Part shown: one piece after another, positions 2,118 through 29,242 of the stretch
Layout: every line of letters starts with the position of its first letter
Position numbering within the stretch: the first letter of the stretch is position 1
Source: an uncultured archaeon
GTDB lineage: Archaea; Iainarchaeota; Iainarchaeia; Iainarchaeales; 0-14-0-20-30-16
Direction: 5' to 3'
Assembly: GCA_964480435.1 (NCBI GenBank)
Contig: CAYZSS010000004.1
Coordinates: forward strand, 13,839 to 45,838
DNA length: 32,000 nucleotides
Translations under genes and position numbers: made by a program
Notes under the pieces: model-generated
Seen by the model: the letters and a program-made list of their open reading frames with translations, nothing else
The model's database searches: none
What the model was told of the DNA's origin: nothing

Positions 2118-2654
2118 ATGCAATTCTTTAAGAAAATAAAAAACTTGGCATACAATAAAAAGAAAAATAATTTTGTCTTGACTTTATCTTCTAAACTCAT
2201 TTTTTTCTTGGGTTTGTTCCTAATTTCTTTTGTTCTATTATATGTTTTATTTGTTTATTCTGGACTTTACAATAATCTTTCCGGATTTTTTGCACAAACC
2301 GTTTACAACCATTTTTCTTATAACTCTGATATTACTCTTGCCGGAACAACTATTGATTTTAAGGCTTTTGAAATAAATATTACTTCTGTTTGTTCAGGGG
2401 TTTATGAATTAATTGTATTTCTTGCATTGATTTTTGCCTGCTTTGAAATTAAACTGTGGAAACGTGTGGTAGGGGCATTATTTTATTTTGTTTTCTTTGT
2501 TGTTTTTAATTTTATTAGAATGATAACTGTCATTTATTCTTTTGCATATTTTGATTTATTTTCTGTTGATTTGTTGCACACTCTGTTATTTAAATTTGGT
2601 TTTTTTATTATTACTTTTTTATTCTTTTTATATTTTTTAATTATTGCGGACTAA
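2118..2654 (+). CDS. miniature exosortase/archaeosortase-family protein (polytopic membrane protein)
   Basis: 178 aa and very hydrophobic. It has 'ITSVCSGVYELIVFLAL' (Cys in a CSG context), then 'FNFIRMITV' (NxxR) and 'DLLHTLLFKFG', the order seen in the exosortase/archaeosortase core. The SD GTGAT (2110-2114) contains the patatin TGA stop. Confidence 0.6.
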   Translation: MQFFKKIKNLAYNKKKNNFVLTLSSKLIFFLGLFLISFVLLYVLFVYSGLYNNLSGFFAQTVYNHFSYNSDITLAGTTIDFKAFEINITSVCSGVYELIVFLALIFACFEIKLWKRVVGALFYFVFFVVFNFIRMITVIYSFAYFDLFSVDLLHTLLFKFGFFIITFLFFLYFLIIAD

Positions 2655-7150: not shown

Positions 7151-7154
7151 TTAC

Positions 7155-8438: not shown

Positions 8439-8440
8439 GT

Positions 8441-11102: not shown

Positions 11103-12143
11103 TTGTGGCATAGTAATATTTTGTGAATTATTTAGGTATCCACCCTTTCTAAATACTAGGTATCCCAAAATTAATACTATTGCAAATATTAATCCAATAG
11201 TAACTGCTCTATTTTCTAAACTAAACAAAGCAGTAGATTTGCCTAGTATCCCACTTAAACTATTTGTCATTGTGGCAGCTAAATTTGTATCTGTGTTGTC
11301 ACTTGTATTGTTTGCTAAATTAGTCTGTTCTGGTATTATTACTACTGGTTTTTGGAAAGCAAAATATTCTGCTCCCAATTCAAACTTTTTATTTGTGTGG
11401 GTATCAACTAAAATAAAATTAAAAGTAGTGTCTACGCAGTTGCTGTTATTATCATAATTTGCATAAAAATCTAACTTGTATTCGAAAGTAGGTGCTAGGT
11501 TTACATAGGAGTAATCATCTGTGATGTAAAAACAATTACTGTCTCCTTCAAAAATAGGAACAAAATCTGAGTTTCCACCAGTATTTGCTACGATTACTGA
11601 AAATTGTTCTTTTACATTATTTGGGCCCAATGCAACAACACTGTTTTCCCAATTTATTACTACTGGGTTTGGAGCTGAGTTGTAGTAGTTTGATTTAATA
11701 TCATAATTGTCTTTATCATTTGCCTTTATTGTAATTGTTGCAGTTTCTGATTTTGAAGTAAACTGGTTCTTAGCAAGAACATTAATTTCTAGTTTATATT
11801 CTTTATTTTCTAGGTCTTCAGGAACTGCTATGTTAATTACCTTATAATGTGAATACTTGGTTGTAATTGTTTGAGGATTTGTAACAACTGTAAAAGGGCT
11901 ATTAAAAGAATAAATAAATTCAACATCTGTTGTAGTTTTTAAATCAATATAAAGCTTAATTATAGCTGTGGACCCTTTTTCTAGGCTTAAATATGTTTGC
12001 TCTGGGGTTACACTAAAGCTGAAATCTTTTGCTTCTTGGGCAAGCTTTTTGTCCATGTCATAGGTAGTGTATGGGAAAACCAAACTGCCTAATAAAAATA
12101 CCCCGAATAAAATACCCATAATAAAAGCTAGTTTCTTAACCAT
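11088..12143 (-). CDS. hypothetical secreted beta-rich protein with N-terminal signal/anchor and C-terminal TM segment
   Basis: 351 aa. N-terminal 'LAFIMGILFGVFLLGSLVF', an Asn/Thr-rich beta-strand-like body, and C-terminal 'VTIGLIFAIVLILGYLVF' followed by 'RKGG'. It is divergent from the giant gene, and its 3' end overlaps mgtE by 15 nt. Confidence 0.6.
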   Translation of the reverse strand: MVKKLAFIMGILFGVFLLGSLVFPYTTYDMDKKLAQEAKDFSFSVTPEQTYLSLEKGSTAIIKLYIDLKTTTDVEFIYSFNSPFTVVTNPQTITTKYSHYKVINIAVPEDLENKEYKLEINVLAKNQFTSKSETATITIKANDKDNYDIKSNYYNSAPNPVVINWENSVVALGPNNVKEQFSVIVANTGGNSDFVPIFEGDSNCFYITDDYSYVNLAPTFEYKLDFYANYDNNSNCVDTTFNFILVDTHTNKKFELGAEYFAFQKPVVIIPEQTNLANNTSDNTDTNLAATMTNSLSGILGKSTALFSLENRAVTIGLIFAIVLILGYLVFRKGGYLNNSQNITMPQSQEN

Positions 12144-12270: not shown

Positions 12271-15200
12271 ATGACTATGGGTTTAGGCGAATTTTTTGGG
12301 AAAATAAATGAAAAAATGAATTCTGGTTATAACAAAATTGTGGAATTTTTGGATGCAAAAGGGATTCCTGCCCAAAAATATACTGATTTTTTGGAAGAAA
12401 AAGGTATACCTGCTATGTGGTTTACCTTGCTGATGATCCTGGTAATAATTTCTGTGATTGTCTTGTTGGTTACAATAATTTTTACCCCTAGTACAAACCT
12501 AACAATTAGTATTATGACTAATGATGGTTTTTCCCCTGATTCTGTATTTTTAAATATTACTAAAGTGGCAGATGGGCAAGTAATAATTTCTGAGCAAGTT
12601 AAAGATGGTACTGAAATAAAAATAAAAGGTGTTGGTGTTGGAGATTCATTATATTTTTCAGGTACTTTAGAAGGTTATTCTTATGACTCCCCAAACAATG
12701 TATCGATTTCTGAAAAAAACTTAACTGTAACTTTGATATTTAATAAAGAAGAACAAACTGGGAGTGTTAGTTTTAAAGTAATAAATAAAGAAGAACAAAC
12801 AAGTGTAGCGAATGCTTTGATTTCGTTTTCTGATTCTGGGGATACATTGTCTTCTGGCCCCACTGATGAGTATGGTGCCTTTAAATTAATTTTACCTATG
12901 AAAAAAATAAATGTTACTGTTGATAAAGATGGTTATGAGCCTTATAGTAAAACAATAGACCTGCTAGAGGGAAATGATTATATTATTGAATTAGTTCCTA
13001 AGGAATTTGACCCTAATGCTGAAGGAAATTTTAAGTTTATTGTAAAAGATACATCGCTTAATTCTCTGAATAATGTAAGTATTGATGTTTATAATCTAAA
13101 GACTAATTCAAAAATTGGAACTGCGTTAACAAATACAGATGGTATAGGGATATTCAATACAAAAAAAGGAACTTCTATAAGATTTGTTGCAAAAAAAGAA
13201 GGTTATGAAACATTTGATTCAAATATTGAAGGTATTTCCCGAACTTTAGTTACTGATGAAGAACTAATATCTCTATCTATGTTTGCTGGTGGTAGTAAGC
13301 TAAAAGTAATAGTAAAAGATGAGTTAGGAGTTACTTTAGATAATGTTTATGTTGCTCTTTACACTTCCATGCTTTTGGAGCAAATGCAGGAAACAACGGA
13401 TATAGGTGGCGTGGCAGAATTTTCTGGGTTGGACTATACAATCTTAAAATATGCTTCTGTTTACAAAGAAGGTTATTACCCCCAAACACAAACAATTGAT
13501 GGATCTGGAGAAATAACTTTCACTCTTGAAAAAGTAGATTTGTCAAAAGCTGCTATTGTTGATGTGTTTTGTGTTGATTCTGATAAAAAACCAGTAGGAG
13601 ATGCATTTTTGGAACTTAGTTATGATGAAAATTCAGAATTATTTCCTTTAGCATATCCTAATCCAACAACATCAGTAACTGGTTATTTTACATTTAATTT
13701 TAAACCTGATGTTGTTTTGTATGCTTCTGCAAGTACTGAAGAAGGTTATGGATCTGCATCATTATTACTAAAACAAGGAAGAAATAGATTAGATATTTCT
13801 ATGACAAAAACCGGAAGTAAATTTACTATGTATCTTTATGATAAAGATGGAAATCCACTATCAAATGCTCATGTAATGCTTTTTGATAAACAAGGAAATT
13901 TAGTTTTTGATGGTTATACAGATGCAACTGGGAAAATAGAGGCTGATGCATTAGGAAATAAAGAACTTGATATGTATGTCACTGATGAGAATGGAAACAA
14001 TTATTCAATGACAATAAATCCAAAAGATAAAATGCAAATAAAATTAGATGCAGCAAAAAATACTGATAATTTATTTGTGGCTTTATCAAAAGTGACTGAT
14101 TTGGAAGGCAATGAAGTTTCTGCTTTGCAAAAAGGAAAAACATATTTTTTATTATTTAATATTTTTTGGCCTGCTGGATTTTATAATGGTGGGCTCCATG
14201 TAAGAGTTGGAAAAGATAGCGATAAATTTGCTGCATCTCAAGATGTTGGGATTATTGGCTATGATGGTATTGCAGATAGTGTAAAATACGGGATAATGTT
14301 CTCTCCTCTGCCATTGCCTGGAGATTATTCTACAGATTACTACTCTACTGGTAGTGCTGGGCAATTTAATAAATGGATGGAGTTGTATTTTTCTGCGCCT
14401 AGTGGAAATAGTACTGTAAAAGTAAGAATAAAATCAAAAGCAAATACTGACATAAATTCTTTTGAAGTAAGATATAGGGCTTGGACTGATGAAGCCGGGA
14501 CAATAAGCAGAATGCCTGTTGATAATATTTTGGGGCAAGAAGAAAATACAAAAACAAAATATGGTTTATATGCTGATGCTTATATGAAAGAAATTAGCTT
14601 AATGTCAGGTTCTTTAAACTGCCAATATGATGTTTGTGTATCGTATAAAATAATTGATGATCAATACACATACGACATTGCAAAATTTAATTCGGTTTTA
14701 GATTATTATTATGCTTTAGATGTGGAATTAACCTCAACTTCAGAACAAAATTTATCTTTGTCTGTTCAAACAGAAGACAATCCAAAATTATATTTGAATA
14801 ACGTGGATATGGATGCAACAACTTTTAATCCCGGAACAGAAAATAATACAAAACTTAATACCTCTTTTGACTTGGGGGCAATGGAAAATAAAACAATAAG
14901 AGTTTACTTTAATCCTTTTAAAGAAGGGCTTACAAAAATTGATGTGAAAACTATAACTCCAAAAGGAGTAATTGAGAAAACAATCCCAGTGAATATTTTT
15001 CCAAAGAAAGAAATGCAAGTAATATTAAGTAGTGATTTTATTCCAACTGGCCAAGATTTTTTTGTAATTGTAAAAGAATCAAATGGAGACTATATTCCAA
15101 ATGCACAAATTACAATTTCTGATAATAAAACAAAACAAAACAAAATGTTTATTGAGGGTACCGGCCAAATAGATTTAGGAAAAGAAGGAAAATACACAAT

Positions 15201-18200
15201 AAAAAATAGCCTAGATAGCGCATTTTATTTGATGTCAGTAAGTGCCCCAGGTTATTTACCAAAAGAAATGGAGTTTTTAGTTGGAAATGTTGGTGCTTTA
15301 TTTGTAAAAGGAGAAAATGAAATAATTGTTCCAAAAACTGCTAAACAGGCAACAATAAAAATACCTGTGCAAAATAAATCAAAGCTTCCAATAGACTCGA
15401 TGCAAATTAATGTTATAAGTTCTACTTTATCAACTAATTTTGCTTTTAATGCAAGAATGGTAACTCCGGCAATACCTGCGAATTCTTTGGCTGATATGTC
15501 TGTCTCTGTAAATTATAGCGGGGCAGAAGATATGGAAAATGGGGTTGTAGAATTAGAAATTCTTGGTGTGCAAAATAGTAAAGATATTGTAAGAGTAAGA
15601 ACAAAAGTATTTGTATATTATAATAAAGAAATAAAAAATGTAAATTGTTTGTGGGTAAGTAAAGAGTCATTAGTTTATAGTTTGCCTGCAATACAAAATG
15701 CAAAAGAAGAAGATTCTTTAGTAGTAAAAAATAACTGTGAATATGATTTGAAAGTAATGCCGTCTCTTGTTTCAGAAGACTCTGCAAATTATGGTCTGCA
15801 AATGCAAATTTTGGGGTTTGATATTAAAAAGGGTGAAGAAAAAGTAGTAAACCTTTCACTTATAAATCAAAATCCATCTGTGCAAGCAGATGAAACAAAA
15901 ATATTATCATTATATTTTGCAACAGACTATTTTACAAAAAATATCCCTGTGAGTGTAACAATTTGGAACGCATCAGGTTCATTGTCAATCTTAACTGCTG
16001 GACAGATTTTTATTTCTGCATTTAAAGAATTGCAGAGCCAATATGTGCCTGTAATTATTCAAAATGTTGGACGATTACCAATTTATAATATTCAATTGGC
16101 AGCATCTAATAATAAGTATCAAGTACAGTCTGCTCAGCAGTATCCTGATTTGATTAGTAGTTCTGTAAATTCTAATTCTTCAGGAATTACTAAAGACTAT
16201 TACGCAAATTTACAAAACGCACAAAGTCAATATAACAGTGTTTATAACAGCCCTTCAATTGGGTCTAATTTATCTGCTAGTCAAGGAATTAATTTTATAC
16301 CCGCAACAATTCAGGTTTTGGCTCCTGGGCAGTCTACTATGCTTCAAGGATATATAAATATGCCATCATCTTCAAAGCAAACAGAAATGTATTATTTGCT
16401 TAATGCTAAAGGTACAGTTCAGGGACTTAATCAACCAATAACTGCACAATCAATGTTGGTAATACATGTTTCACCTGATAAGTGTGTTACTCTGAAACAA
16501 GAAACAAAATTAACTTATATTAGTGATATACTTGGTAAGGATTTAGCAAGAACATTTACTTTGATAAATAATTGTGCTGAGCCAGTAAATATAACTGGAA
16601 TAAATGAAAGCGATTTGTTTGGAAATAAAGTTGTTTTGAGTGCACCAAATGGTAGTACAATTAATCTTGGGCAAGAAAAAGAATTTATTTTAACAATTAC
16701 TGCAAGTAAAGAAATCTCAAGAGATAATTCAGTATTTGTAAAAGCACAATTGGGGACAAGTAATGCTCCATTCAATATACCATTAATTGTTAATTTAAGG
16801 TTTGGTGGGGGAGCATCAACATCTGCTGGAGAAGCAAATGTAAGTGAAGAAAAAAGAATAAAAAATTGTACAACAAATGAAGAAGTATCTGTATTCTATC
16901 CAAGAATGTCTAATGCGGATTGTTCCACCATGGGGTATTGTGATGGGGAATCAATGTCTAAATTTTTAATTGCAAAATTAAAATTTTATCTGGATGTATA
17001 TAATAAAAAATTAGCAACAATAAATAACAAATTAATAAATACAAATTGTAAACTTGGTTCAACAGCTTGTTCATTTGAAGACTTTGGTTTAGAACCATTA
17101 GAAATGGACGTTTATTTTGCGAATGATAAACTAACGGAAGAACAAATGAAACTGGATTTTAAGAAAATGAATATGGGGCTGTTAGAAACAGCTATAACAG
17201 ACAAAGTTGTTTTAACTGATGTTACCTCTACTTGGGCAAAAAGATTGTATTTAGATAAACAATTAGACGGCTGTGGAAAATATAAAATAAGAATTACTGG
17301 TGCAGTAATGGTAATTAATAATGATTCAATACAAAGAGATAGTTACAACATGTATATCGAGGTTTTAAGTAAAGAAAAAACCCCGCAGTGTGATATTAAA
17401 GTACAAAACGCCTTGAACTTTTTGCCAAAAGATGCACAAACAAAAAAAGATAATCCTTATGGATTAAGAATAGGTTACGTTGATTATGCGTCAAGTAATT
17501 TAGAAAAAATAGCAGCAAAAGTTTCAACAAGTTTGTTTAGTGTGGATAGGTATATGAAATCAAAACCAAATACTATTTTCTTGAAAACAGATTCTGTTGC
17601 AGAAGGAAATTTAGTTGAATTTAGTATTGCAAAAACAGGAACAGATGTGGTGACTACTGTAAAAATAAATAAAAATTTGGACCTTTCAAATGTTGCAATT
17701 ATTGATGATATAGTAAAAGCAATTATGGGCTTTATAAATGGAAATTTTGATGGCTGTATGAATCTTACTTCTGATGGAGTTCCTAATTCAGCACAGGTGA
17801 AGTCCGGAACAGGTGGAATAACAGGGACTAAAAAAGATGCAAAAGAAGTATACTCAGGGGATATAAAAATAGGTGTTTGTGATAAACTGCCTCTGGGAAA
17901 AGGAAAATGGTCTTGTACTATAAATTTAGAATCACAATCTTTGGGTAGATTAAATTTGGCTTTGACTTACCCTGAAGGAACTGGGTTTGAAGCTTATATT
18001 GACTCTCCTGGCCAAAAATCAAAATCAGTGGATTTGAAAAAAAATGGCAATAAATATGAGGGTAGCTCAAAAATTACTGTTGAGATTAGTGATCCTTTCT
18101 TGGTTAATTCAGGGGCAAATAATGATAGTGTTGGTTTGTTCTACTATGCCGAAAAAGATGGTATACAAACAGACCCTATAAGAATAGGATTTGACCCAGC

Positions 18201-21200
18201 TTGTGGAATTACACCTCAATTATTTGTTGATAGTTTATTACAAAACACAGGTCAGAATGAAAAAGGATTTTCAAATTATGCTTTGATTTATGAACCAGGT
18301 GTTGAAAGTAGAGAAACATGTAAACTATTAGAAAACTTTTTGAAATCTAACCCTAATATTGGAAAAGGTGGGGTGTTTAATATAACACAAAAAGGATCAA
18401 ACAAATATGCCTTAATAAATTATGAAGACTGCCAACTGGATCAAAAAAGCATAGTTGCAGCAATGACTGACAATGTTGATGCTTCAAAATTGGGTGTTGC
18501 TACCGCAGCAGGAATGGCAGCCTGTATGACTCTGGAAATGGGTGCAGGAAAAGTATTAACTAAATTGCTTGGCCCAATAGGGTTTGTTGCGTCCGCAGTT
18601 GATTGTGGAATTATGATGAGTTTCAATGTGGGTAGTGAATTATATAAAACTCATAGACTAAAAGCTGAAGCAGGATTAAGCGAGAAAAATGCTCTTGATT
18701 CTATTCACGATGGTTTGGCATCTGTCCCTGTTCTGGGTACTATTTTGGGGATGGAAGAATATAATAATATTGATGAGCAAATAGCGGCAGCACAAGAAAC
18801 ACAAGACCCAAGTGCTCTGGCTAGTCTAACTAATGGTGCAAATGAAACCCTAATGACAAGTACCACAGATAATGAGAATGCAAATGCAGAAGTAGGTGCA
18901 GTAGGGTTTTTAAGAGGAGTATTGAATTCAAGAAAAGCAACAGGAATAACTAAGACTGAAACAGTGGTTCCTGGTACCCCTGGCACTCCTGCGGAAGGAG
19001 GGACAACGACTCCACCAACAGAAACACCCCCTACTACTGGTGAAGGTGGCACTCCAACTGAACCAGAAGCAGGCACTCCTAATGAAGGGGCAACAACTGG
19101 TGAAGGTGGAGATACTTCTACCCCTCCCCCTGAAGAGGGAGGAGCGACTCCGCCAGCAGAAACAACTGAGCCAATAACTCCTCAGGTTACTGATGAGGAA
19201 TTATTAAGGGCACAGCAAGCAATAGCCGATGCGGAAGCTGATTTAGCAGCAAAAAAACAAGTGCTGGATGCCGCTAATGCAAAGTCAACTGTAGCAAATG
19301 GAAATAAAGTCGCTGCACAAAGAGCAGTAACAGATTCAAGAATTAGAGTTGCAGACGCTATTGAAAAAAGAGAAGCGCTAGAAAATTATTTAAAAAATGT
19401 AGAGGCTGGATTAACAGAAACACATAAAGAGCTAGCAGCAATAGCAGAAAAAAGATTGGGTTTAGAAGATTTAATGGATGAAACTGGAGAATCATTAAGG
19501 GAAGCAAAAAATAAATTAGCAACAACTATTGGAGAAAGAGATGCCGCACAGATTTTATTGGATGACCTAATAGAACAAAGAAAAGGCGGACTTGAAATGC
19601 CCATTGATGATATTGTAAAAATAGAAGCAGATATAGTTGCCACACAAAATAAATTAAACTCACTTAATGAATTTGTAGCAGCTCAACCAAAAGCAATAAC
19701 TCCTTTACAGGATTTATATGATGCATCACAAAGATCATTCTCCGCAGTTTTAGCTGAGGAAGAAACAATTTTTGAAGGGCTAAAAAATGCAGAAGGAGCA
19801 AGAGTTTCTAGTGAATTTGTGCCCGCAAAAATAATAGCAGAAGAAAACGCAAAAAAAATATTATTTGATGCAGAAAGTGCTTTGAAAACAGCAACAAAAG
19901 AAGTAGCAACAGTTGCAGCAGAAGTAAAAGCCGCACAAAAAGCAGTAACAGCAGCAGAAGCAATAAGAACAAATGCACTTGCAAATGAAAAAAGTTTACT
20001 ATCTGTGAAAGAATTCTTAAAAACTCCCACTCAAATAAATGAGGCCTTAACTAGGGTGTCAAACAATGTTGATGAATTGGATGATTTAGTAAGAAGAGCT
20101 AGAGGGGGAGTAAATGCTGAAACAAAAGCTGGTTTAGAATCAGCAATAAGGCAAAAAGCTATAACAATAAATAAAGAATATGCAGCAATATCTCAATCAT
20201 TAAGTTCTGAAGCACCAGCAAAATGGAAGTTCTGGGCTACTAATCAACAAAAAAAGATAATAAAAGCTTACAATAAATTGGGACTTGCGGGTGCTGAAAC
20301 AGATACCGCATTTGGAAAAAAATTAGTATCAAAATGGACTTATAATAGAAAGTCTGATGCTCTAAAGAATGCAATAGATAATAGATTAACACCTCCAACA
20401 ACTGCAGCAGAAGCAGCAGTGGAAACCAAGGCTGTTGAAAATGCAGGAAAAGAAGCAGCAGCAACAAAAGTAAAAGCTACTAAACCTGTGGCCGCAACAG
20501 AACCCCCTAAAGTAACTCCTCCTCCAGAAGTAGGAGCAACAGCAGGAGGAACAGTTGGAGAAGAAGCAAAAACAGTAATAACAAAAACAGGAACAAGTAA
20601 ATTTGGAAACTTTATGAAAGGTATGGCAGTTGGAATTATAGGAGGTACCGCTGGTACAATCGCATTTTATGCTATGCTTGATTATGAACTGTCCAGTTCA
20701 AAATTAAATTTGATAACTATTGATGTTACTGCTCCAAGGCAGATATACAATTATAGTTCATATGTTGGATCGGTAAATCCTTTATTTAATACATCGAGAG
20801 ATCTGAATATTTTTGAGGGTTCAGATGGAAATGAGCTTGATAATTGTAGTGTTCTTGGGCAGTCAAAAGGATTCCAGGAAGTCCAGGGAACAAAAACAGG
20901 AATAGGTGGGAGTGGGACAGTAGGTTCTGAGCCTTCTGCATATGACTCATTAATAATAAAGGCGGCAAACAGCGCAGGAATAGAACCTGAATTATTGAAA
21001 GCAATATTAAAATCTGAGTCTGGTTTTAACACAAATTCAATTTCTGGATCTGGCTGTTCTGGATTAGGGCAGATTTGTAGAACAAGCGCAAATATAGAAT
21101 ATATAAAAGTGCAATGTTCTCAAAGCAAAACAGATGGTCCAAAAAAGTGTGATGTTACCACCTGTAAGAGTAGCGGGAGTTATGTTTGGTGTGATGCCTG

Positions 21201-22650
21201 TACTTCGGATGGTCCTAATTGTGTTGCAGATGATAGATTTGATCCTGAAAAGAATCTTATGGCCTCAGCTTTAATAGTGAAATCAAAAGCTAATTCAGTA
21301 GGAGACTGTGGAAAAGATAAAATAAAAGCCTGGGTTGCGGCTTATAACATGGGTCAAAAATGGGTTAATCAGGCAGTTGTTATGAATGGTGGAAATTGTG
21401 ATGATTGGGCTAATGAGGTTTGGTATAAACTAAAAGAAATAACTGATACAAACCCAGACTTAACCTATGAAAAAATAGCTAATAAAAAAGGTGATTATAC
21501 TAATACAAGTAGTGATTATGTTGCAAAAATTTATGATCAATATTTAGCATATAAAAATAATGGCCTTTCTGGTGGACAAAGTACTAACTCTAGTACAGGG
21601 TCAGGTGTAGGTACAGGAACAAGTATAGCAAATAATGCTAAGCCTTTGGAAAACTGTAGTGAAATAATGTTAGTAGGGGATTCCTTGACCGTTGGATATT
21701 CTCCCATATTTAATAGTAAATTTTGTGAAGGAGTAACTATTTGTGCTGTGGGTGGAAAACAAACTGATTGGATGTTCCAGACTTGTTTTACAGATGCAAA
21801 ATTAGCAAATATAAAATATGTTGTAATTATGGGTGGAATAAATGATTTATCAGCTAATAAGGCAGCAAGTACAATTCGGAATAATTTAACTCAAATGTAT
21901 TCTAAAGCAAAATCTAAAGGGATACCTGTTATTGCAATAACTTTACTTCCTTGGAAAGGATATAGAACTTGGACAGAAGCAAAACAAACAACTCAAGAAG
22001 GAATAAACAATTGGATAAAATCTTCACCGCTTGTTAGTTCTGTTTTAGATGGTTATGCTCTGTTTGATAATGGCTCTGATGAAATAATAGCTGAATATAA
22101 TTCAGGAAAACTTCATCTGACTAATTCAGGGTATGAAGTTTTGGCTAATGCAGTATTAGCAAAGTTTATGGAACTAAGTTCAGCTTCTGGGCAAACATCT
22201 GCTGGTGCTGGTACAACACCTCCCCCTGCAACTCCGCCTCCTGCACAAAAACCAGCTGATCCGCTAAGCACAGCAAAAGAATTACTTTCAAGTAATGGCT
22301 TTGATCCTGCTCTTTTACCTGCGGATAACTATATTGGCTCTGTAATTGTAAATGGGAATCAAATTACTGCTAATTTAACTGGTCAGATGTGTTCTAAGGT
22401 TGATGGTTTAACTGGTACTTTAGTTGCTGGTTATGATTCAGCACATAAAATCTGTTTTTCAGTAACTCCTGGGCAAATAAATCCTTGTAGTGGAAATGAA
22501 ATATATGGACTAAAAGGGGATGCAGGTTTTATTACAGCTAAGATAACCCAGATAGTTAAATCTGGCACTTCTTATACAATAAAAACAACTATACAGGACC
22601 AAGTTGTTGCTCAGAATAAGCTTGCGGGAATAGCATATGCTCCTTGCTAA
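12271..22650 (+). CDS. giant (3,459 aa) membrane-anchored multidomain surface protein with C-terminal SLT lytic transglycosylase and SGNH hydrolase domains
   Basis: A single uninterrupted 10,380-nt ORF. Codon usage is consistent with its neighbours. Domain evidence is itemised in the sub-features below. Confidence 0.9.
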   Translation: MTMGLGEFFGKINEKMNSGYNKIVEFLDAKGIPAQKYTDFLEEKGIPAMWFTLLMILVIISVIVLLVTIIFTPSTNLTISIMTNDGFSPDSVFLNITKVADGQVIISEQVKDGTEIKIKGVGVGDSLYFSGTLEGYSYDSPNNVSISEKNLTVTLIFNKEEQTGSVSFKVINKEEQTSVANALISFSDSGDTLSSGPTDEYGAFKLILPMKKINVTVDKDGYEPYSKTIDLLEGNDYIIELVPKEFDPNAEGNFKFIVKDTSLNSLNNVSIDVYNLKTNSKIGTALTNTDGIGIFNTKKGTSIRFVAKKEGYETFDSNIEGISRTLVTDEELISLSMFAGGSKLKVIVKDELGVTLDNVYVALYTSMLLEQMQETTDIGGVAEFSGLDYTILKYASVYKEGYYPQTQTIDGSGEITFTLEKVDLSKAAIVDVFCVDSDKKPVGDAFLELSYDENSELFPLAYPNPTTSVTGYFTFNFKPDVVLYASASTEEGYGSASLLLKQGRNRLDISMTKTGSKFTMYLYDKDGNPLSNAHVMLFDKQGNLVFDGYTDATGKIEADALGNKELDMYVTDENGNNYSMTINPKDKMQIKLDAAKNTDNLFVALSKVTDLEGNEVSALQKGKTYFLLFNIFWPAGFYNGGLHVRVGKDSDKFAASQDVGIIGYDGIADSVKYGIMFSPLPLPGDYSTDYYSTGSAGQFNKWMELYFSAPSGNSTVKVRIKSKANTDINSFEVRYRAWTDEAGTISRMPVDNILGQEENTKTKYGLYADAYMKEISLMSGSLNCQYDVCVSYKIIDDQYTYDIAKFNSVLDYYYALDVELTSTSEQNLSLSVQTEDNPKLYLNNVDMDATTFNPGTENNTKLNTSFDLGAMENKTIRVYFNPFKEGLTKIDVKTITPKGVIEKTIPVNIFPKKEMQVILSSDFIPTGQDFFVIVKESNGDYIPNAQITISDNKTKQNKMFIEGTGQIDLGKEGKYTIKNSLDSAFYLMSVSAPGYLPKEMEFLVGNVGALFVKGENEIIVPKTAKQATIKIPVQNKSKLPIDSMQINVISSTLSTNFAFNARMVTPAIPANSLADMSVSVNYSGAEDMENGVVELEILGVQNSKDIVRVRTKVFVYYNKEIKNVNCLWVSKESLVYSLPAIQNAKEEDSLVVKNNCEYDLKVMPSLVSEDSANYGLQMQILGFDIKKGEEKVVNLSLINQNPSVQADETKILSLYFATDYFTKNIPVSVTIWNASGSLSILTAGQIFISAFKELQSQYVPVIIQNVGRLPIYNIQLAASNNKYQVQSAQQYPDLISSSVNSNSSGITKDYYANLQNAQSQYNSVYNSPSIGSNLSASQGINFIPATIQVLAPGQSTMLQGYINMPSSSKQTEMYYLLNAKGTVQGLNQPITAQSMLVIHVSPDKCVTLKQETKLTYISDILGKDLARTFTLINNCAEPVNITGINESDLFGNKVVLSAPNGSTINLGQEKEFILTITASKEISRDNSVFVKAQLGTSNAPFNIPLIVNLRFGGGASTSAGEANVSEEKRIKNCTTNEEVSVFYPRMSNADCSTMGYCDGESMSKFLIAKLKFYLDVYNKKLATINNKLINTNCKLGSTACSFEDFGLEPLEMDVYFANDKLTEEQMKLDFKKMNMGLLETAITDKVVLTDVTSTWAKRLYLDKQLDGCGKYKIRITGAVMVINNDSIQRDSYNMYIEVLSKEKTPQCDIKVQNALNFLPKDAQTKKDNPYGLRIGYVDYASSNLEKIAAKVSTSLFSVDRYMKSKPNTIFLKTDSVAEGNLVEFSIAKTGTDVVTTVKINKNLDLSNVAIIDDIVKAIMGFINGNFDGCMNLTSDGVPNSAQVKSGTGGITGTKKDAKEVYSGDIKIGVCDKLPLGKGKWSCTINLESQSLGRLNLALTYPEGTGFEAYIDSPGQKSKSVDLKKNGNKYEGSSKITVEISDPFLVNSGANNDSVGLFYYAEKDGIQTDPIRIGFDPACGITPQLFVDSLLQNTGQNEKGFSNYALIYEPGVESRETCKLLENFLKSNPNIGKGGVFNITQKGSNKYALINYEDCQLDQKSIVAAMTDNVDASKLGVATAAGMAACMTLEMGAGKVLTKLLGPIGFVASAVDCGIMMSFNVGSELYKTHRLKAEAGLSEKNALDSIHDGLASVPVLGTILGMEEYNNIDEQIAAAQETQDPSALASLTNGANETLMTSTTDNENANAEVGAVGFLRGVLNSRKATGITKTETVVPGTPGTPAEGGTTTPPTETPPTTGEGGTPTEPEAGTPNEGATTGEGGDTSTPPPEEGGATPPAETTEPITPQVTDEELLRAQQAIADAEADLAAKKQVLDAANAKSTVANGNKVAAQRAVTDSRIRVADAIEKREALENYLKNVEAGLTETHKELAAIAEKRLGLEDLMDETGESLREAKNKLATTIGERDAAQILLDDLIEQRKGGLEMPIDDIVKIEADIVATQNKLNSLNEFVAAQPKAITPLQDLYDASQRSFSAVLAEEETIFEGLKNAEGARVSSEFVPAKIIAEENAKKILFDAESALKTATKEVATVAAEVKAAQKAVTAAEAIRTNALANEKSLLSVKEFLKTPTQINEALTRVSNNVDELDDLVRRARGGVNAETKAGLESAIRQKAITINKEYAAISQSLSSEAPAKWKFWATNQQKKIIKAYNKLGLAGAETDTAFGKKLVSKWTYNRKSDALKNAIDNRLTPPTTAAEAAVETKAVENAGKEAAATKVKATKPVAATEPPKVTPPPEVGATAGGTVGEEAKTVITKTGTSKFGNFMKGMAVGIIGGTAGTIAFYAMLDYELSSSKLNLITIDVTAPRQIYNYSSYVGSVNPLFNTSRDLNIFEGSDGNELDNCSVLGQSKGFQEVQGTKTGIGGSGTVGSEPSAYDSLIIKAANSAGIEPELLKAILKSESGFNTNSISGSGCSGLGQICRTSANIEYIKVQCSQSKTDGPKKCDVTTCKSSGSYVWCDACTSDGPNCVADDRFDPEKNLMASALIVKSKANSVGDCGKDKIKAWVAAYNMGQKWVNQAVVMNGGNCDDWANEVWYKLKEITDTNPDLTYEKIANKKGDYTNTSSDYVAKIYDQYLAYKNNGLSGGQSTNSSTGSGVGTGTSIANNAKPLENCSEIMLVGDSLTVGYSPIFNSKFCEGVTICAVGGKQTDWMFQTCFTDAKLANIKYVVIMGGINDLSANKAASTIRNNLTQMYSKAKSKGIPVIAITLLPWKGYRTWTEAKQTTQEGINNWIKSSPLVSSVLDGYALFDNGSDEIIAEYNSGKLHLTNSGYEVLANAVLAKFMELSSASGQTSAGAGTTPPPATPPPAQKPADPLSTAKELLSSNGFDPALLPADNYIGSVIVNGNQITANLTGQMCSKVDGLTGTLVAGYDSAHKICFSVTPGQINPCSGNEIYGLKGDAGFITAKITQIVKSGTSYTIKTTIQDQVVAQNKLAGIAYAPC
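12415..12483 (+). other. giant protein: N-terminal TM anchor (aa 49-71)
   Basis: 'MWFTLLMILVIISVIVLLVTIIF' follows a 48-aa Lys/Glu-containing soluble stub. It resembles a signal-anchor rather than a cleaved signal peptide. Confidence 0.7.
12499..14046 (+). repeat. giant protein: six tandem ~80-aa carboxypeptidase-regulatory-like beta-sandwich repeats (protein-level repeats)
   Basis: Each unit reads roughly as 'x(V/I)xVxDxxxxP(L/V)xxAxVxL ... T(D/N)xxGxxxF ... GxYxxxxxK(E/D)GY(E/Y)'. Examples are 'TDEYGAFKL..VDKDGYEPY', 'TNTDGIGIF..AKKEGYETF', 'TDIGGVAEF..VYKEGYYPQ' and 'TDATGKIEA'. A seventh copy lies at nt 15013-15282. Confidence 0.65.
18490..18624 (+). other. giant protein: pair of Gly/Ala-rich hydrophobic segments (possible TM hairpin or membrane-insertion segments)
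   Basis: 'LGVATAAGMAACMTLEMGAG' and 'LLGPIGFVASAVDCGIMMSF' are separated by 5 residues. Each contains charged residue(s), so membrane spanning is uncertain. Confidence 0.4.
18967..19185 (+). repeat. giant protein: Pro/Thr/Glu/Gly low-complexity linker
   Basis: 'PGTPGTPAEGGTTTPPTETPPTTGEGGTPTEPEAGTPNEGATTGEGGDTSTPPPEEGGATPPAETTEPITP', with 'TTGEGG' occurring twice. GC is locally elevated. Confidence 0.85.
19189..20388 (+). other. giant protein: ~400-aa Ala/Glu/Lys-rich alpha-helical (coiled-coil-like) region
   Basis: Long Pro-poor stretches such as 'LLRAQQAIADAEADLAAKKQVLDAANAK' and 'ATKEVATVAAEVKAAQKAVTAAEAIRTNALANEK'. This is judged by eye; no coiled-coil predictor was run. Confidence 0.6.
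20620..20679 (+). other. giant protein: internal Gly-zipper-like TM helix (aa 2784-2803)
   Basis: 'GMAVGIIGGTAGTIAFYAML' is preceded by a second Pro/Ala/Thr-rich linker (20389-20570). Confidence 0.6.
20935..21450 (+). other. giant protein: SLT (family-1 lytic transglycosylase) domain
   Basis: Motif I 'LLKAILKSESGFN' (Glu2916, codon 21016-21018), motif II 'GLGQI' (GLMQ-like) and motif III 'AAYNMGQ' (AYNxG). A Cys-rich insertion lies between motifs II and III. Confidence 0.8.
21655..22176 (+). other. giant protein: SGNH/GDSL hydrolase domain
   Basis: Block I 'MLVGDSLTVG' (Ser3138, codon 21682-21684), block II 'AVGGKQT', block III 'IMGGINDL' and block V 'KLHLTNSGYEVLA'. His is present, but the Asp of DxxH is not. 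Confidence 0.8.
22264..22647 (+). other. giant protein: ~128-aa C-terminal domain of unknown function after a third Pro-rich linker
   Basis: Follows 'GTTPPPATPPPAQKPADP'. It contains 4 Cys and ends 'GIAYAPC'. There is no TM segment and no recognisable sorting signal. Confidence 0.4.
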
Positions 22651-22931: not shown

Positions 22932-23165
22932 TTGCCGAATATAGACATTCTTAATCATATTTTAGTACCTAAGTTTGAAATAATGAAAGACGAAGAACTA
23001 AAACTTTTTTTTAAAGAAAGGGGAATAAGTAGAACTGAACTTCCCACAATGAAAGCAATAGACCCTGTTGTACCTCTTATTAATGCAAAATCTGGTGATG
23101 TTGTAAAGATCACTCGAAAATCAAATTTTGGTGGAATTTGCTATTACTATAGGGTTGTGGAGTGA
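22932..23165 (+). CDS. rpoH: DNA-directed RNA polymerase subunit H (Rpo5)
   Basis: 'NHILVPKFEIMKDEE...LPTMKAIDPVV...GDVVKITRKS...YYRVV' matches the RpoH signature. TTG start, with no in-frame ATG or GTG upstream of the conserved HILVPK. GGGGGT is SD-like and lies 6 nt upstream. Confidence 0.85.
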   Translation: MPNIDILNHILVPKFEIMKDEELKLFFKERGISRTELPTMKAIDPVVPLINAKSGDVVKITRKSNFGGICYYYRVVE

Positions 23166-23170
23166 TATTT

Positions 23171-24643: not shown

Positions 24644-24710
24644 TATTAATAAAAAATAAACAAAAAAAATAATAGAAAAAAAATAAAAGTAGCAATAAGA
24701 ACCAAAAAAA

Positions 24711-26595: not shown

Positions 26596-26606
26596 GGGGT
26601 ATCATT

Positions 26607-29216: not shown

Positions 29217-29242
29217 CCAATGAAATAAAGGTGTGATATTTT

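What the first reader, a model, noticed from the sequence alone, without database searches (positions are those of the whole stretch)
12271..22650. 3,459-aa membrane-anchored giant surface protein directly upstream of the RNA polymerase operon
Seen: one uninterrupted 10.4-kb ORF fills about a third of the window. It reads as a 48-aa cytoplasmic stub plus a TM anchor, followed by six tandem ~80-aa carboxypeptidase-regulatory-like beta-sandwich repeats, with a seventh copy at 15013-15282. At least five Ig-like modules follow (nt ~15340-16800) with '(V/I)xNxxxxP(I/L/V)' strands, for example 'IPVQNKSKLPI', 'VIIQNVGRLPI' and 'FTLINNCAEPV'. A Cys-bearing central region comes next, then the hydrophobic segments, coiled coil, TM helix and enzyme module. 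Inference: this looks like an adhesin-like stalk presenting an enzymatic tip. In an AT-rich, compact archaeal genome that is the architecture expected of a cell-cell contact or attack organelle rather than an ordinary S-layer protein. It is divergently paired with another secreted beta-rich protein (11088-12143). No accessory secretion or glycosylation genes are visible nearby.
Basis: partly seen in the sequence, partly recalled or inferred. Interest (0 to 1): 0.85.

Follow-up and report, generated by a model that had tools for sequence, protein, structure and literature searches.

The report
Giant archaeal surface protein, wall-cutting tip
This is a real 3,459-residue membrane-anchored surface protein of a tiny DPANN archaeon (Iainarchaeota) that carries bacterial cell-wall-cutting enzymes at its far end, which suggests the archaeon physically engages bacteria; large proteins of this general kind have already been noted in other DPANN lineages.

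Summary
The ORF 12271-22650 (+) is real, has no internal stops and contains no DNA tandem repeats. An orthologue in Candidatus Iainarchaeum sp. is collinear with it. It belongs to a family of giant proteins (83 cluster representatives, about 53 full length). Every member that carries a taxon name is Diapherotrites/Iainarchaeum or unclassified 'archaeon', apart from two short fragments filed under a bacterium.

The first ~2,050 residues are a conserved scaffold. They comprise a 48-aa cytoplasmic stub with a duplicated KGIP motif, one TM helix, CarboxypepD_reg-like beta-sandwiches and a conserved 315-aa domain. PapD/ASH-like Ig modules follow, then a Cys-rich alpha/beta core that models confidently (pLDDT 92) and has no solved structural relative.

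The C-terminal third varies between members and ends in interchangeable peptidoglycan hydrolases. Here these are an SLT lytic transglycosylase with intact catalytic motifs and an SGNH esterase. Relatives carry amidases, NlpC/P60 or glucosaminidase instead.

In ten more distant relatives' loci the gene is followed by a pilin-like gene and a second giant gene. In five of them a type-IV-pilus ATPase gene and an EpsH-like gene lie upstream (a sixth has the EpsH-like gene). The window lacks this cluster.

Best reading: a long surface stalk that binds and locally breaches bacterial cell walls. The literature already notes large SLT proteins in Woese- and Pacearchaeota, so this is a new variant of a known kind. 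Function is inferred, not shown.

The parts
12271..22650 (+). Giant ORF, 3,459 aa (probable true start at M3, nt 12277)
   Evidence: Collinear orthologue in L001/P0005. No DNA tandem repeats.
12271..12414 (+). Conserved cytoplasmic N-terminal stub (aa 1-48) with a duplicated KGIP motif (K30-P33, K44-P47)
   Evidence: G31, P33, G45 and P47 are invariant in 17 family members. Alignment. 77% identical to the orthologue.
12415..12486 (+). N-terminal transmembrane anchor (aa 49-72)
   Evidence: KD 19-residue peak 3.47. A peak at the same position is seen in nearly all full-length relatives.
12487..14070 (+). Six tandem ~85-aa units (aa 73-600). R2, R3, R4 and R6 are supported as CarboxypepD_reg/transthyretin-like beta-sandwiches. 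R1 and R5 are only putative.
   Evidence: Pfam PF13620, E 9e-20. Per-segment scan. Repeat HMM.
14071..15015 (+). Conserved 315-aa domain of unknown fold (aa 601-915) with invariant H643, R645, G647, D689, R736, C784 and C789
   Evidence: No Pfam match at E<=0.001 and no PDB sequence match. The weak Cep192_D4 hit falls at aa 818-906.
15016..15300 (+). Seventh CarboxypepD_reg-like repeat (aa 916-1010)
   Evidence: Pfam E 1.1e-5. Repeat HMM E 5e-22.
15301..16830 (+). About four PapD/ASH-like Ig modules (aa 1011-1520), each opening with an xxNxxxxP(I/L/V) strand. An S/N/Q-rich insert lies around aa 1285-1340.
   Evidence: Motif positions. AF2 beta-sandwich at aa 1424-1512. Foldseek hits to HYDIN/CEP192 PapD-like domains.
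16834..17814 (+). Family-defining Cys-rich alpha/beta core domain (aa 1522-1848). Motifs: DCSxxYCDx, GCGKY, NFLPxD.
   Evidence: AF2 pLDDT 91.7, pTM 0.89. No PDB or BFVD fold match at E<1e-3. It is the most widely matched segment in the family, 78 of 85 family sequences compared.
17815..18210 (+). Beta-rich domain following the core (aa 1849-1980)
   Evidence: AF2 model, pLDDT roughly 50-80.
18448..18624 (+). Weakly hydrophobic, Cys-containing conserved segment (aa 2060-2118; AYxxxC...DCGxP). Possibly a helical hairpin or a membrane-interacting element.
   Evidence: KD 1.57 here and 1.6-2.1 in relatives. Alignment. Low AF2 confidence.
18916..19140 (+). Pro/Thr/Gly/Glu-rich linker (aa 2216-2290)
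   Evidence: T+P is 44% of residues. Sequence.
19141..20580 (+). Ala/Glu/Lys-rich helical, coiled-coil-like region (aa 2291-2770)
   Evidence: Heptad heuristic: only aa 2305-2413 and 2522-2620 exceed the shuffle maximum. Only 30% identical to the orthologue, but its length is kept.
20611..20679 (+). Conserved Gly/Ala-rich 'glycine-zipper-like' segment (aa 2781-2803).
   Evidence: KD 1.63. The conserved motif KGxxxGxxANxAGxxxY is seen. It is below the TM threshold in most relatives.
20908..21450 (+). SLT / GH23-type lytic transglycosylase domain (aa 2880-3060). Catalytic E2916-S2917, GLGQ 2931-2934, AYNMG 3024-3028.
   Evidence: Pfam PF01464, 47.9 bits against a 21.3 cut-off. NCBIfam lytic transglycosylase models match only weakly, far below their cut-offs. 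Motifs. PHROG endolysin and internal-virion-protein hits.
21646..22170 (+). SGNH/GDSL hydrolase domain (aa 3126-3300). Ser3138, Gly3161/3162, Asn3191, His3282.
   Evidence: Pfam PF13472, 49.2 bits against a 32.9 cut-off. PDB SGNH hits at E 5e-8. Block alignment.
22171..22647 (+). Unique C-terminal 159-aa domain of unknown function. It is absent from the closest orthologue.
   Evidence: No Pfam or PDB match.
11088..12143 (-). Divergent 351-aa protein with an N-terminal signal-like segment and a C-terminal TM followed by a basic tail. Its link to the giant gene is not conserved.
2118..2654 (+). EpsH/exosortase-like membrane protein. It is a homologue of the genes found directly upstream of the giant gene in other Iainarchaeota loci.
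   Evidence: BLASTP to L014 and L015 EpsH-like ORFs, E 2e-11 and 1.6e-8. Pfam Exosortase_EpsH is recorded on those genes. The window copy has no Pfam hit of its own.
22932..23165 (+). rpoH, first gene of the RNA polymerase operon downstream (context only)

Best explanation
The gene encodes an intact cell-surface protein of about 3,457-3,459 aa from an Iainarchaeota (Diapherotrites, DPANN) archaeon. A short conserved N-terminal stub stays in the cytoplasm, and one TM helix anchors the protein. The rest is most likely extracellular.

In order, the extracellular part comprises:
- seven transthyretin-like beta-sandwiches;
- a conserved 315-aa domain;
- about four PapD-like Ig modules;
- a disulfide-rich alpha/beta core of a fold with no solved relative;
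- a hydrophobic Cys-containing segment;
- a Pro/Thr linker;
- about 480 aa of coiled-coil-like helix;
- a Gly-zipper-like segment;
- at the distal end, a cassette of bacterial-type peptidoglycan enzymes.

Proposed mechanism (inferred). The stalk holds the cassette tens of nanometres from the archaeal membrane. The SGNH esterase removes O-acetyl groups from MurNAc C6, by analogy with Ape1-type O-acetyl-peptidoglycan esterases. This frees the hydroxyl that the SLT lytic transglycosylase needs to cleave the glycan strand. Together they would bind and locally open the wall of a neighbouring bacterium. The purpose could be attachment, access to the cell, killing it, or harvesting muropeptides.

Shown: the ORF, its domains, the catalytic motifs, the family and its tip swapping, and the gene-cluster synteny in relatives.

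Inferred: the topology beyond TM1, the esterase substrate, and the ecological role.
For: ORF integrity; orthologue collinearity.

Taxon: RpoB'' is 92% identical to Candidatus Iainarchaeum sp. STB_43, and the window carries archaeal housekeeping genes.

Enzymes:
- SLT and GDSL_2 both score above the Pfam cut-offs.
- The E-S, GLGQ and AYNMG motifs of SLT are present, as are Ser, Gly, Asn and His of the SGNH blocks.
- The tail holds 17 Cys in aa 2801-3400, against none in aa 2201-2800. This fits an extracellular, disulfide-bonded module.

Family:
- An exhaustive HMMER search with aa 1000-2140 gave 83 cluster representatives, 45 of them at E<1e-30, mostly 2.2-3.4 kaa and collinear.
- The conserved scaffold is documented.
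- Tails carry SLT, GDSL, Amidase_2, Amidase_3, NlpC/P60, Glucosaminidase or DUF2272 in different combinations.
- 23 further members end in a domain that hhalign relates weakly to the family's SLT domains (probability 62%, E 7e-5).

Taxon labels:
- Every label found on a full-length member or cluster representative is Diapherotrites/Iainarchaeum or 'archaeon'.
- Two short fragments (700 and 794 aa) are filed under an Izemoplasmatales bacterium.

Other points:
- A CPR bacterium (Magasanikbacteria) has the same SLT+GDSL pair at 37% identity.
- Phage virion-associated SLT proteins are the nearest viral analogues of the tip. They make local holes rather than causing bulk lysis.
- The scaffold evolves fast relative to the neighbouring genes: 51-66% identity against 83-92% for the RNA polymerase subunits.
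- The literature proposes the same role for large DPANN SLT proteins (PMC8204110; PMC9723730). Archaeal peptidoglycan hydrolases have been shown to kill bacteria (PMC12352652).
Against: - No experiment, expression data or host link supports the proposal.
- The SGNH domain lacks the Asp of the block V DxxH motif. Its closest solved relatives are generic carbohydrate esterases and acylhydrolases, not Ape1, so O-acetyl-peptidoglycan specificity is only an analogy.
- Topology after TM1 is unresolved. If the aa 2060-2118 segment spans the membrane once, the coiled coil would be cytoplasmic.
- About three quarters of family members have no recognisable active peptidoglycan hydrolase under my seeds. 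Many 'EALL' domains have Lys in place of the catalytic Glu. Wall cutting therefore cannot be the universal function of the scaffold.
- Diapherotrites have been regarded as possibly free-living (my own recollection of Youssef et al. 2015, not checked here).
Confidence: 0.6

Rival explanations
1. The protein is a type-IV-pilus-associated giant adhesin or 'modular pilin'. The conserved stub ending in (K/R/H)-G just before the hydrophobic helix would be a class-III-like signal. The protein would then be processed and displayed on, or at the tip of, a pilus-like filament that reaches bacterial prey. This refines the main explanation rather than excluding it.
For: - In 10 of 10 loci of the main clade, the giant gene is followed by a 400-600-aa protein with a prepilin-like N-terminus (MNxKGF(T/N)LFTALV...) and then by a paralogous second giant carrying the same N-terminal stub.
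- In 5 of those loci a T2SSE/PilB-like ATPase gene and an EpsH-like gene lie directly upstream. L014 has the EpsH-like gene with small pilin-like genes instead.
- Small KGQ-type pilin genes lie next to the cluster in L014 and L015.
- G45 is invariant and the residue before it is K, R or H in all 17 aligned members.
- Archaeal type IV pilus loci with two large putative tip adhesins have been described (PMC4858521).
Against: - The window itself has no ATPase, pilin-like gene or second giant.
- The near clade (L023, L024, P0006) also lacks them next to the gene.
- The leader would be 45 aa and strongly conserved, which is atypical.
- Pro at +2 after the putative cut does not fit the FlaFind-type pattern.
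- No prepilin peptidase gene was seen.
Confidence: 0.25
2. The protein is primarily a structural envelope or S-layer-like protein of Iainarchaeota. The peptidoglycan-hydrolase tail would be an accessory, lineage-variable add-on for antibacterial defence or wall-debris scavenging, with no contact-dependent role.
For: - The scaffold is conserved and collinear across the family whatever the tail.
- Many members have no recognisable active hydrolase.
- The protein is beta-sandwich-rich and Cys-rich, like many archaeal surface proteins.
- It sits among housekeeping genes.
Against: - An N-terminal anchor preceded by a conserved cytoplasmic stub is unlike typical archaeal S-layer proteins; there is no PGF-CTERM-type C-terminal anchor.
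- Relatives show synteny with pilus-type machinery.
- Repeated acquisition of different peptidoglycan hydrolases at the same distal position implies selection on wall targeting.
- In the near clade, a separate ~1,460-aa protein with a signal peptide and a C-terminal anchor sits nearby and is a better S-layer candidate.
Confidence: 0.15
3. The feature is an assembly artefact, a pseudogene fusion, or a gene belonging to a virus or mobile element rather than a cellular gene.
For: - The gene is very long and comes from a metagenome-like sequence.
- G+C rises to 0.37-0.39 in 18-21 kb, against about 0.31 elsewhere.
- The exact protein is not on record.
- The tip resembles phage virion lysins.
Against: - There are no stops and no DNA repeats.
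- The gene is collinear with an orthologue at the same locus next to the RNA polymerase operon, and with about 50 full-length relatives.
- The G+C rise coincides with the Ala/Gly/Pro/Thr-rich linker and coiled-coil coding region.
- The scaffold has no PHROG match.
- The flanks are housekeeping genes.
Confidence: 0.02

Closest known systems
[quoted passage not shown] 2021, PMC8204110; 'large lytic murein transglycosylase' of Woesearchaeota, Vigneron et al. 2022, PMC9723730)
   Same: - DPANN archaeon.
- Protein of about 3,000 aa.
- Carries an SLT/GH23 domain.
- Predicted to be extracellular.
- Same proposed role: binding or degrading bacterial cell walls.
   Different: - Those proteins were reported as specific to Woese- and Pacearchaeota; this one is from Iainarchaeota (Diapherotrites).
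- Homology of the scaffolds was not tested directly.
- An exhaustive HMMER search with the central 1,141 aa found only 83 representatives. All that carry a lineage name are Diapherotrites/Iainarchaeum; the rest are labelled only 'archaeon' or carry no name.
- This suggests a separate scaffold family.
- I did not find the tip swapping, the conserved stub, the core fold or the pilus-cluster synteny described in the papers I could search.
Specialised (machine-associated) lytic transglycosylases: T7 gp16-type internal virion proteins, phage lytic tail proteins, VirB1/EtgA-type enzymes (the last two from my own knowledge)
   Same: An SLT domain is fused to, or carried by, a large delivery structure. 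It is used to open a local gap in peptidoglycan. PHROG and phage tblastn hits are to exactly these classes.
   Different: - Only the ~60-180-aa catalytic domain is related (29-40% identity).
- The 2,800-aa carrier has no phage or bacterial homologue.
- The producer is an archaeon that has no murein of its own.
SGNH peptidoglycan O-acetylesterase Ape1 paired with lytic transglycosylases (established bacterial biochemistry; my own knowledge)
   Same: An SGNH-fold esterase sits next to a lytic transglycosylase. Lytic transglycosylases need a free MurNAc C6-OH, so the pairing makes functional sense. The same pair occurs in a CPR bacterium (P0002).
   Different: - No specific sequence relationship to Ape1 was found.
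- The best solved relatives are generic SGNH or carbohydrate esterases.
- The Asp of the catalytic triad is missing.
- The substrate is untested.
Large tip adhesins and modular pilins of type IV pili (PilY1-like DUF2341 proteins in archaeal T4P loci, PMC4858521; bimodular pilins of Streptococcus sanguinis, my own knowledge)
   Same: In the main clade of the family, two giant genes flank a pilin-like gene, and a PilB-type ATPase gene lies upstream in five of the ten loci. The hydrophobic helix is preceded by (K/R/H)-G.
   Different: - No sequence homology to PilY1 or DUF2341.
- The cluster is absent from the window.
- Signal-peptide rules are not met strictly.
- The protein is about three times larger than known examples.
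SPEARE giant proteins of Nanohaloarchaeota (Hamm et al. 2019; my own knowledge) and giant genes of predatory Omnitrophota (bioRxiv 10.1101/2023.11.21.568195)
   Same: These are giant, multi-domain surface proteins of ultra-small, host-dependent or predatory microbes. They combine adhesion modules with degradative enzymes.
   Different: - The domain content differs. No protease or nuclease domains are detected here.
- No homology was tested or expected.
- The lineage is different.

Membership tests
SLT / GH23 lytic transglycosylase domain (Pfam PF01464) | Profile match above the curated cut-off | tested here: met
   47.9 bits against a 21.3 cut-off, aa 2894-2952 plus a second stretch. PHROG endolysin and internal virion protein families also match.
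SLT / GH23 lytic transglycosylase domain (Pfam PF01464) | Catalytic Glu in an E-S motif, plus GLxQ and AYNxG motifs | tested here: met
   E2916-S2917, GLGQ 2931-2934 and AYNMG 3024-3028. All are conserved in the orthologue and in P0007/P0009.
SLT / GH23 lytic transglycosylase domain (Pfam PF01464) | Cleaves MurNAc-GlcNAc bonds and forms 1,6-anhydroMurNAc | not testable with these tools
   Needs an enzyme assay on sacculi.
SGNH/GDSL hydrolase (Pfam PF13472) | Profile match above the cut-off, and blocks I (GDS), II (G) and III (GxND) | tested here: met
   49.2 bits against a 32.9 cut-off. Ser3138 lies in VGDSLT, Gly3161/3162 in AVGGKQT, and Asn3191 in GGINDL.
SGNH/GDSL hydrolase (Pfam PF13472) | Block V DxxH (Asp-His of the triad) | tested here: inconclusive
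   His3282 is present in KLHLT. The residue at -3 is Gly, not Asp. The CPR homologue P0002 has DSLH.
Ape1-type O-acetyl-peptidoglycan esterase | Specific sequence or structural relationship to Ape1, and activity on O-acetylated MurNAc | tested here: not met
   The PDB sequence search returns only generic SGNH/GDSL acylhydrolases and carbohydrate-esterase-like entries. Activity is not testable. The functional analogy remains a hypothesis.
DPANN large SLT-domain extracellular proteins (fam00969, PMC8204110) | DPANN origin, length around 3,000 aa, SLT domain | tested here: met
   Iainarchaeota assignment through RpoB'' (92% identity). Length 3,459 aa. SLT domain.
DPANN large SLT-domain extracellular proteins (fam00969, PMC8204110) | Sequence homology to fam00969 members / restriction to Woese- and Pacearchaeota | tested here: inconclusive
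   No fam00969 sequences were at hand. Indirectly, HMMER with aa 1000-2140 against 1.84 billion representatives found only 83 relatives. The lineage names they carry are Diapherotrites/Iainarchaeum, apart from two short fragments filed under a bacterium.
Iainarchaeota giant-scaffold family (defined here) | KGIP-KGIP stub, then TM, then a collinear scaffold with invariant Cys pattern and the core motifs NNCAEPV, DCSxxYCD, GCGKY and NFLPxD | tested here: met
Archaeal type IV pilin / class III signal peptide protein | [K/R]-G cleavage motif directly before a ~20-aa hydrophobic helix | tested here: inconclusive
   K44-G45 is followed by IPAMWF and a 24-aa hydrophobic stretch, and G45 is invariant. 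However, Pro at +2 violates the usual +2..+4 [ILMVTAS] rule, and the leader is 45 aa and conserved.
Archaeal type IV pilin / class III signal peptide protein | Encoded in a locus with a T4P ATPase, platform protein and pilins | tested here: not met
   None of these genes is in the 32-kb window. The pilin-like gene follows giant A in all 10 main-clade relatives' loci, and the ATPase gene lies upstream in 5 of them.
Archaeal S-layer protein | Signal peptide plus a C-terminal anchor (e.g. PGF-CTERM), and lattice formation | tested here: not met
   The anchor is N-terminal and is preceded by a conserved cytoplasmic stub. The C-terminus (…AGIAYAPC) has no TM helix. Lattice formation is not testable.
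Phage tape-measure or virion protein | Homology of the non-enzymatic part to phage protein families | tested here: not met
   No PHROG match for aa 1-2804. The flanking genes are cellular.

The most novel reading that the evidence does not exclude
The Iainarchaeota giants could be parts of a pilus-machinery-driven 'harpoon'. After the tip enzymes open the bacterial wall, the conserved hydrophobic hairpin (aa 2060-2118) and the Gly-zipper segment (aa 2781-2803) would insert into the bacterial membrane. This would create a cross-domain tether or conduit through which a DPANN archaeon feeds on a bacterium. It would be a contact-dependent archaeon-to-bacterium penetration device built on a protein fold with no known relative.
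Probability: 0.1. Interest if true: 0.9.

Novelty: new variant of a known kind. Interest (0 to 1): 0.6.

Why it matters
Archaea have no murein, so a surface protein tipped with murein-cutting enzymes is direct genomic evidence that this lineage engages bacteria. The hosts or prey of Iainarchaeota are unknown.

This family offers concrete handles for finding out:
- a conserved scaffold that could be targeted with antibodies or FISH-correlated imaging;
- a small enzyme cassette that can be expressed and assayed;
- a conserved gene cluster with pilus machinery in relatives, which suggests how the protein is deployed.

The swapping of seven hydrolase types onto one scaffold resembles polymorphic-toxin or tail-fibre logic. 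It could report on the wall chemistry of the target bacteria. The confidently predicted core domain has no solved relative and is a candidate new fold.

Tried and rejected
Searches that failed or found nothing:
- The word-index homology search with the full protein timed out.
- The same tool with aa 2040-3459 found nothing.
- With a 12-sequence core profile it also found nothing. The candidate lists were apparently swamped.
- With the tail alone it found only 4 hits.
- The exact-sequence look-up of the giant protein found no record.
- Self-BLAST found no internal repeats, so I used Pfam on segments and a home-built repeat HMM instead.
- Foldseek of the multi-domain model against PDB returned only generic PapD/Ig matches.
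- The core domain alone had no significant PDB or viral match.
- Profile searches of the mid domain, the core and the C-terminal 159 aa against PDB sequences found nothing.
A 5-sequence alignment worked.

Ideas rejected:
- Metalloprotease function for the core. There are weak zincin-like partial fold hits, but no HExxH motif and almost no His.
- Phage origin. The scaffold has no PHROG match.
- A conserved partnership with ORF 11088-12143. No homologue lies next to relatives.
- The aa 2785-2803 segment as a bona fide TM helix.

Full report
**Observation.** The window contains a single 10,380-nt ORF (12271-22650, +) that translates to 3,459 residues without a stop. Tandem Repeats Finder sees only five trivial, low-scoring arrays inside it, so the protein repeats are not a DNA-level assembly hazard. 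The surrounding genes are archaeal housekeeping genes: RNase P Pop5, ribosomal S15 and S3Ae, a RIO kinase, MgtE, a MacB-type ABC transporter, then rpoH and the split rpoB''/B' and rpoA'/A'' genes. RpoB'' is 92% identical to that of Candidatus Iainarchaeum sp. STB_43. That places the organism in Iainarchaeota/Diapherotrites, within DPANN.

**Orthologue.** The STB_43 genome carries an orthologue at the same locus, upstream of the RNA polymerase operon with two extra genes in between. It is broken by a contig end. P0005 covers aa 1-1334 and L001 98..5923 covers aa 1322-3309, both collinear with the window's protein. Identity by region:
- scaffold: 59-77%;
- coiled-coil region: 30%;
- SLT domain: 67%;
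- SGNH domain: 52%.

The last 159 residues are unique to the window's protein. For comparison, the neighbouring RNA polymerase subunits are 83-92% identical. Relatives start MG(L/I/V)G, so the real start is probably M3 (nt 12277).

**Anatomy.** Residues are listed with their supporting calls.
- aa 1-48: conserved stub.
- aa 49-72: strong TM helix (KD 3.47).
- aa 73-600: six tandem ~85-aa units. Four are supported as CarboxypepD_reg/transthyretin-like by Pfam and by a repeat HMM. R1 and R5 are not.
- aa 601-915: a strongly conserved domain with invariant His, Arg, Asp and Cys. It has no significant Pfam hit and no PDB sequence relative.
- aa 916-1010: a seventh repeat.
The last one models as a beta-sandwich, and Foldseek relates it to PapD/ASH domains of HYDIN and CEP192.
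- aa 1522-1848: a Cys-rich alpha/beta domain that models with pLDDT 91.7 and pTM 0.89. It has no PDB or viral fold match below E 1e-3.
- aa 1849-1980: a beta-rich domain of lower confidence.
- aa 2060-2118: a weakly hydrophobic segment with two conserved Cys.
- aa 2216-2290: a Pro/Thr-rich linker.
- aa 2291-2770: an Ala/Glu/Lys-rich helical region. It contains the only two stretches of the protein whose heptad score exceeds the shuffle maximum.
- aa 2781-2803: a conserved Gly/Ala-rich segment.
- aa 2880-3060: SLT domain with E2916-S2917, GLGQ and AYNMG.
- aa 3126-3300: SGNH domain with Ser3138, Gly3161/3162, Asn3191 and His3282, but no Asp at His-3.
- aa 3301-3459: a unique 159-aa tail of unknown function.

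Five of seven repeats are supported, not seven. Four Ig modules can be placed, not five or more. The 'TM helix' near aa 2790 is not convincing: KD is 1.63 here and below 1.6 in most relatives.

**The family.**
- An exhaustive HMMER search with aa 1000-2140 against 1.84 billion cluster representatives returned 83 proteins. 45 of them score below E 1e-30, and most are 2,200-3,400 aa and collinear with the query.
- Alignments of 17, 28 and 47 members show the same layout as far as about residue 2050.
- The cytoplasmic stub has the consensus MGxxExLxxIYxKxExKYYxxxDFLxxKGIPxxxYNDFLExxGIPxFP.
- G31, P33, G45 and P47 are invariant among the 17 aligned members, and a fixed set of Cys residues is also invariant.
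- Labels on full-length members and cluster representatives are Candidatus Diapherotrites archaeon, Candidatus Iainarchaeum sp. or unclassified 'archaeon'.
- Two 700-794-aa fragments on 3-kb contigs are filed under a bacterium, probably through mis-binning.

**The variable tip.** Beyond residue ~2050 the sequences diverge, but the hydrophobic segment and the KGxxxGxxANxAGxxxY segment stay recognisable. The extreme C-terminus carries different peptidoglycan hydrolases in different members:

| Member | C-terminal domains |
|---|---|
| Window protein, P0007, P0009 | SLT + GDSL |
| P0006 | DUF2272 + SLT |
| P0010 | SLT + Amidase_2 |
| P0011 | Glucosaminidase + Amidase_2 |
| P0033 | NlpC/P60 + Amidase_3 + Glucosaminidase |
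| P0072 | NlpC/P60 |
| P0029 | SLT |

- With local seeds, at least 11 of 53 full-length members carry a recognisable hydrolase, or 13 counting two SLT-like tails.
- This is a lower bound. NCBI names P0023 an SLT protein, yet my seeds missed it.
- A further 23 members end in a family-specific domain with the motif (V/I)PEALL.
- hhalign aligns this domain to the family's SLT domains over the catalytic-helix and YN motifs, at probability 62% and E 7e-5.
- In many of these the catalytic Glu position holds Lys.
- I read this, tentatively, as an ancestral lysozyme-like wall-binding or wall-cutting end that has repeatedly been supplemented or replaced by active enzymes.
- The window's SLT+GDSL pair also occurs in a 611-aa protein of a CPR bacterium (Magasanikbacteria) at 37% identity. 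That is compatible with cassette transfer between ultra-small bacteria and archaea.

**Genomic context in relatives.**
- In ten loci of the more distant main clade (L013-L022), the order giant A, pilin-like 400-600-aa protein, giant B is invariant.
- The pilin-like protein has the N-terminus MNxKGF(T/N)LFTALV. Giant B is a paralogue with the same N-terminal stub.
- In five loci, a 760-aa T2SSE/PilB-type ATPase gene lies on the opposite strand and an EpsH/exosortase-like gene lies directly upstream.
- L014 shows the EpsH-like gene together with small KGQ-type pilin genes. In L015 the ATPase is followed by a 780-aa putative platform protein and several small pilin-like genes.
- The window lacks this cluster, as do the loci of its nearer relatives (P0006, L023, L024). 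Those share a different neighbourhood: RelA/SpoT upstream, and downstream a ~370-aa protein plus a ~1,460-aa protein with a signal peptide and a C-terminal anchor.
- The window does contain a homologue of the EpsH-like gene at 2118-2654, right after a patatin-like phospholipase gene.
- The 351-aa protein divergent from the giant gene has no counterpart beside relatives.

**How it most likely works.**

Shown:
- an N-terminally anchored protein whose distal end carries an SLT domain with an intact catalytic set and an SGNH hydrolase with Ser, Gly, Asn and His;
- a scaffold conserved across a lineage, onto which different murein hydrolases have been grafted at the same place.

Inferred:
- Everything after TM1 is outside the cell. 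Supporting this, the tail is Cys-rich, the linker is Pro/Thr-rich, and conserved Cys residues lie within the 'hydrophobic' segments.
- The beta-sandwich array and the coiled coil act as a long spacer.
- The esterase de-O-acetylates MurNAc so that the lytic transglycosylase, which needs the free C6 hydroxyl, can cut. This rests on known Ape1/LT biochemistry recalled from my own knowledge. No specific Ape1 relationship was found.
- The target is the wall of a neighbouring bacterium.

The nearest viral analogues of the tip are virion-associated SLT proteins that punch local holes. This fits a 'local breach' better than bulk lysis. Whether the outcome is attachment, feeding, killing or scavenging cannot be decided here. 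An alternative topology, with aa 2060-2118 spanning the membrane once and the coiled coil in the cytoplasm, cannot be excluded.

**Comparison with what is known.**
- Castelle et al. [quoted passage not shown] They propose attachment to bacterial walls, and cite earlier sightings in three DPANN genomes.
- Vigneron et al. 2022 (PMC9723730) use 'large lytic murein transglycosylase' genes to argue for predatory Woesearchaeota.
- Strock et al. 2025 (PMC12352652) show that archaeal peptidoglycan hydrolases can kill bacteria and find such homologues prominent in Nanoarchaeota.
- Makarova et al. 2016 (PMC4858521) describe archaeal type IV pilus loci with two large putative tip adhesins.

The concept is therefore known. 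What I did not find in the searchable literature is:
- this Iainarchaeota scaffold family;
- its conserved cytoplasmic stub;
- the core domain without a solved relative;
- the systematic swapping of hydrolase types;
- the ATPase / EpsH / giant A / pilin-like / giant B cluster.

Only 83 relatives of the central 1,141 residues exist among 1.84 billion representatives. None that carries a lineage name is Woese- or Pacearchaeota. The Woese/Pace proteins are therefore probably a separate scaffold. That would make 'giant stalk plus murein hydrolase' a convergent DPANN theme, but a direct alignment was not possible.

**Verdict.** The interpretation 'adhesin-like stalk presenting an enzymatic tip' is supported. 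The 'attack organelle' reading is plausible but unproven, and it has already been proposed for analogous proteins. I rate this a new variant of a known kind and of moderate-to-high interest. It gives a concrete, testable handle on whether Iainarchaeota interact with bacteria.

Noticed in passing
window 1310-2654: A patatin-like phospholipase gene (1310-2113, Pfam E 1e-31) is followed 4 nt later by an EpsH/exosortase-like multi-TM protein (2118-2654). Homologues of the latter sit directly upstream of the giant gene in other Iainarchaeota loci (L014, L015, L018-L020, L022). A lipase next to a sorting-enzyme-like gene in an organism with a wall-cutting surface protein may be relevant to attacking bacteria.
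   Followed up: partly
L013-L022 (e.g. L015 4447-28458; L018 1532-21126): A conserved cluster occurs in the main clade of the family: T2SSE/PilB-like ATPase (-), EpsH-like (+), giant A, a 400-600-aa protein with prepilin-like N-terminus MNxKGF(T/N)LFTALV, then giant B, a 2,500-2,660-aa paralogue with the same KGIP stub. The giant A, pilin-like and giant B order holds in all ten loci. The ATPase and EpsH-like genes lie upstream in five (L014 has the EpsH-like gene only). L014 and L015 also carry small KGQ-type pilin genes.
   Followed up: partly
window 7155-8438 (-) and 11088-12143 (-): Two beta-rich proteins have no Pfam match. Each has an N-terminal signal-like segment and a C-terminal TM helix followed by a basic tail (…YIIILAALVGAYFGFKKYKKMKNKN; …IGLIFAIVLILGYLVFRKGG…). 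The layout recalls exosortase/archaeosortase sorting signals, and an EpsH-like gene is present in the window. The first lies inside a MacB/FtsX-type ABC transporter operon (5876-9151).
   Followed up: no
L023 25081-25845; L024 25794-26570; L014 1003-1899: Multi-TM proteins near the giant genes start with MELGEYFSK… or MAGTLEALGEIFG…. This resembles the giant's own N-terminus, MGLGEFFGK. The shared N-terminal motif across unrelated-looking membrane proteins of these loci is unexplained.
   Followed up: no
L023 20647-25062; L024 21260-25627; P0006 contig: In the near clade of the window's giant, a conserved ~1,460-aa protein with a signal peptide and a C-terminal TM anchor lies two to three genes downstream. 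It has no Pfam match and is a candidate envelope or S-layer protein. No counterpart is present in the window.
   Followed up: no
window 18001-21000: G+C rises to 0.37-0.39 against about 0.31 for the rest of the window. The rise coincides with the Ala/Gly/Pro/Thr/Glu-rich linker and coiled-coil coding region, so it is probably compositional rather than a sign of foreign DNA.
   Followed up: partly
window 22171-22647: The last 159 residues of the giant protein have no homologue in any family member, including the 51%-identical orthologue, which stops just after the SGNH domain. They also have no Pfam or PDB match. This may be a recently acquired binding module.
   Followed up: partly
window 22932-30373: The RNA polymerase operon has the order rpoH, rpoB'' (493 aa), rpoB' (601 aa), rpoA' (869 aa), rpoA'' (376 aa). 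The B subunit is split, and a 146-nt gap lies between the B'' and B' genes.
   Followed up: no
P0094, P0097: Two 700-794-aa fragments of a family member on ~3-kb contigs are deposited as Candidatus Izemoplasmatales bacterium. The full-length identical-cluster protein is from an 'archaeon' contig of 92 kb. This is probably a binning error in the public record.
   Followed up: no
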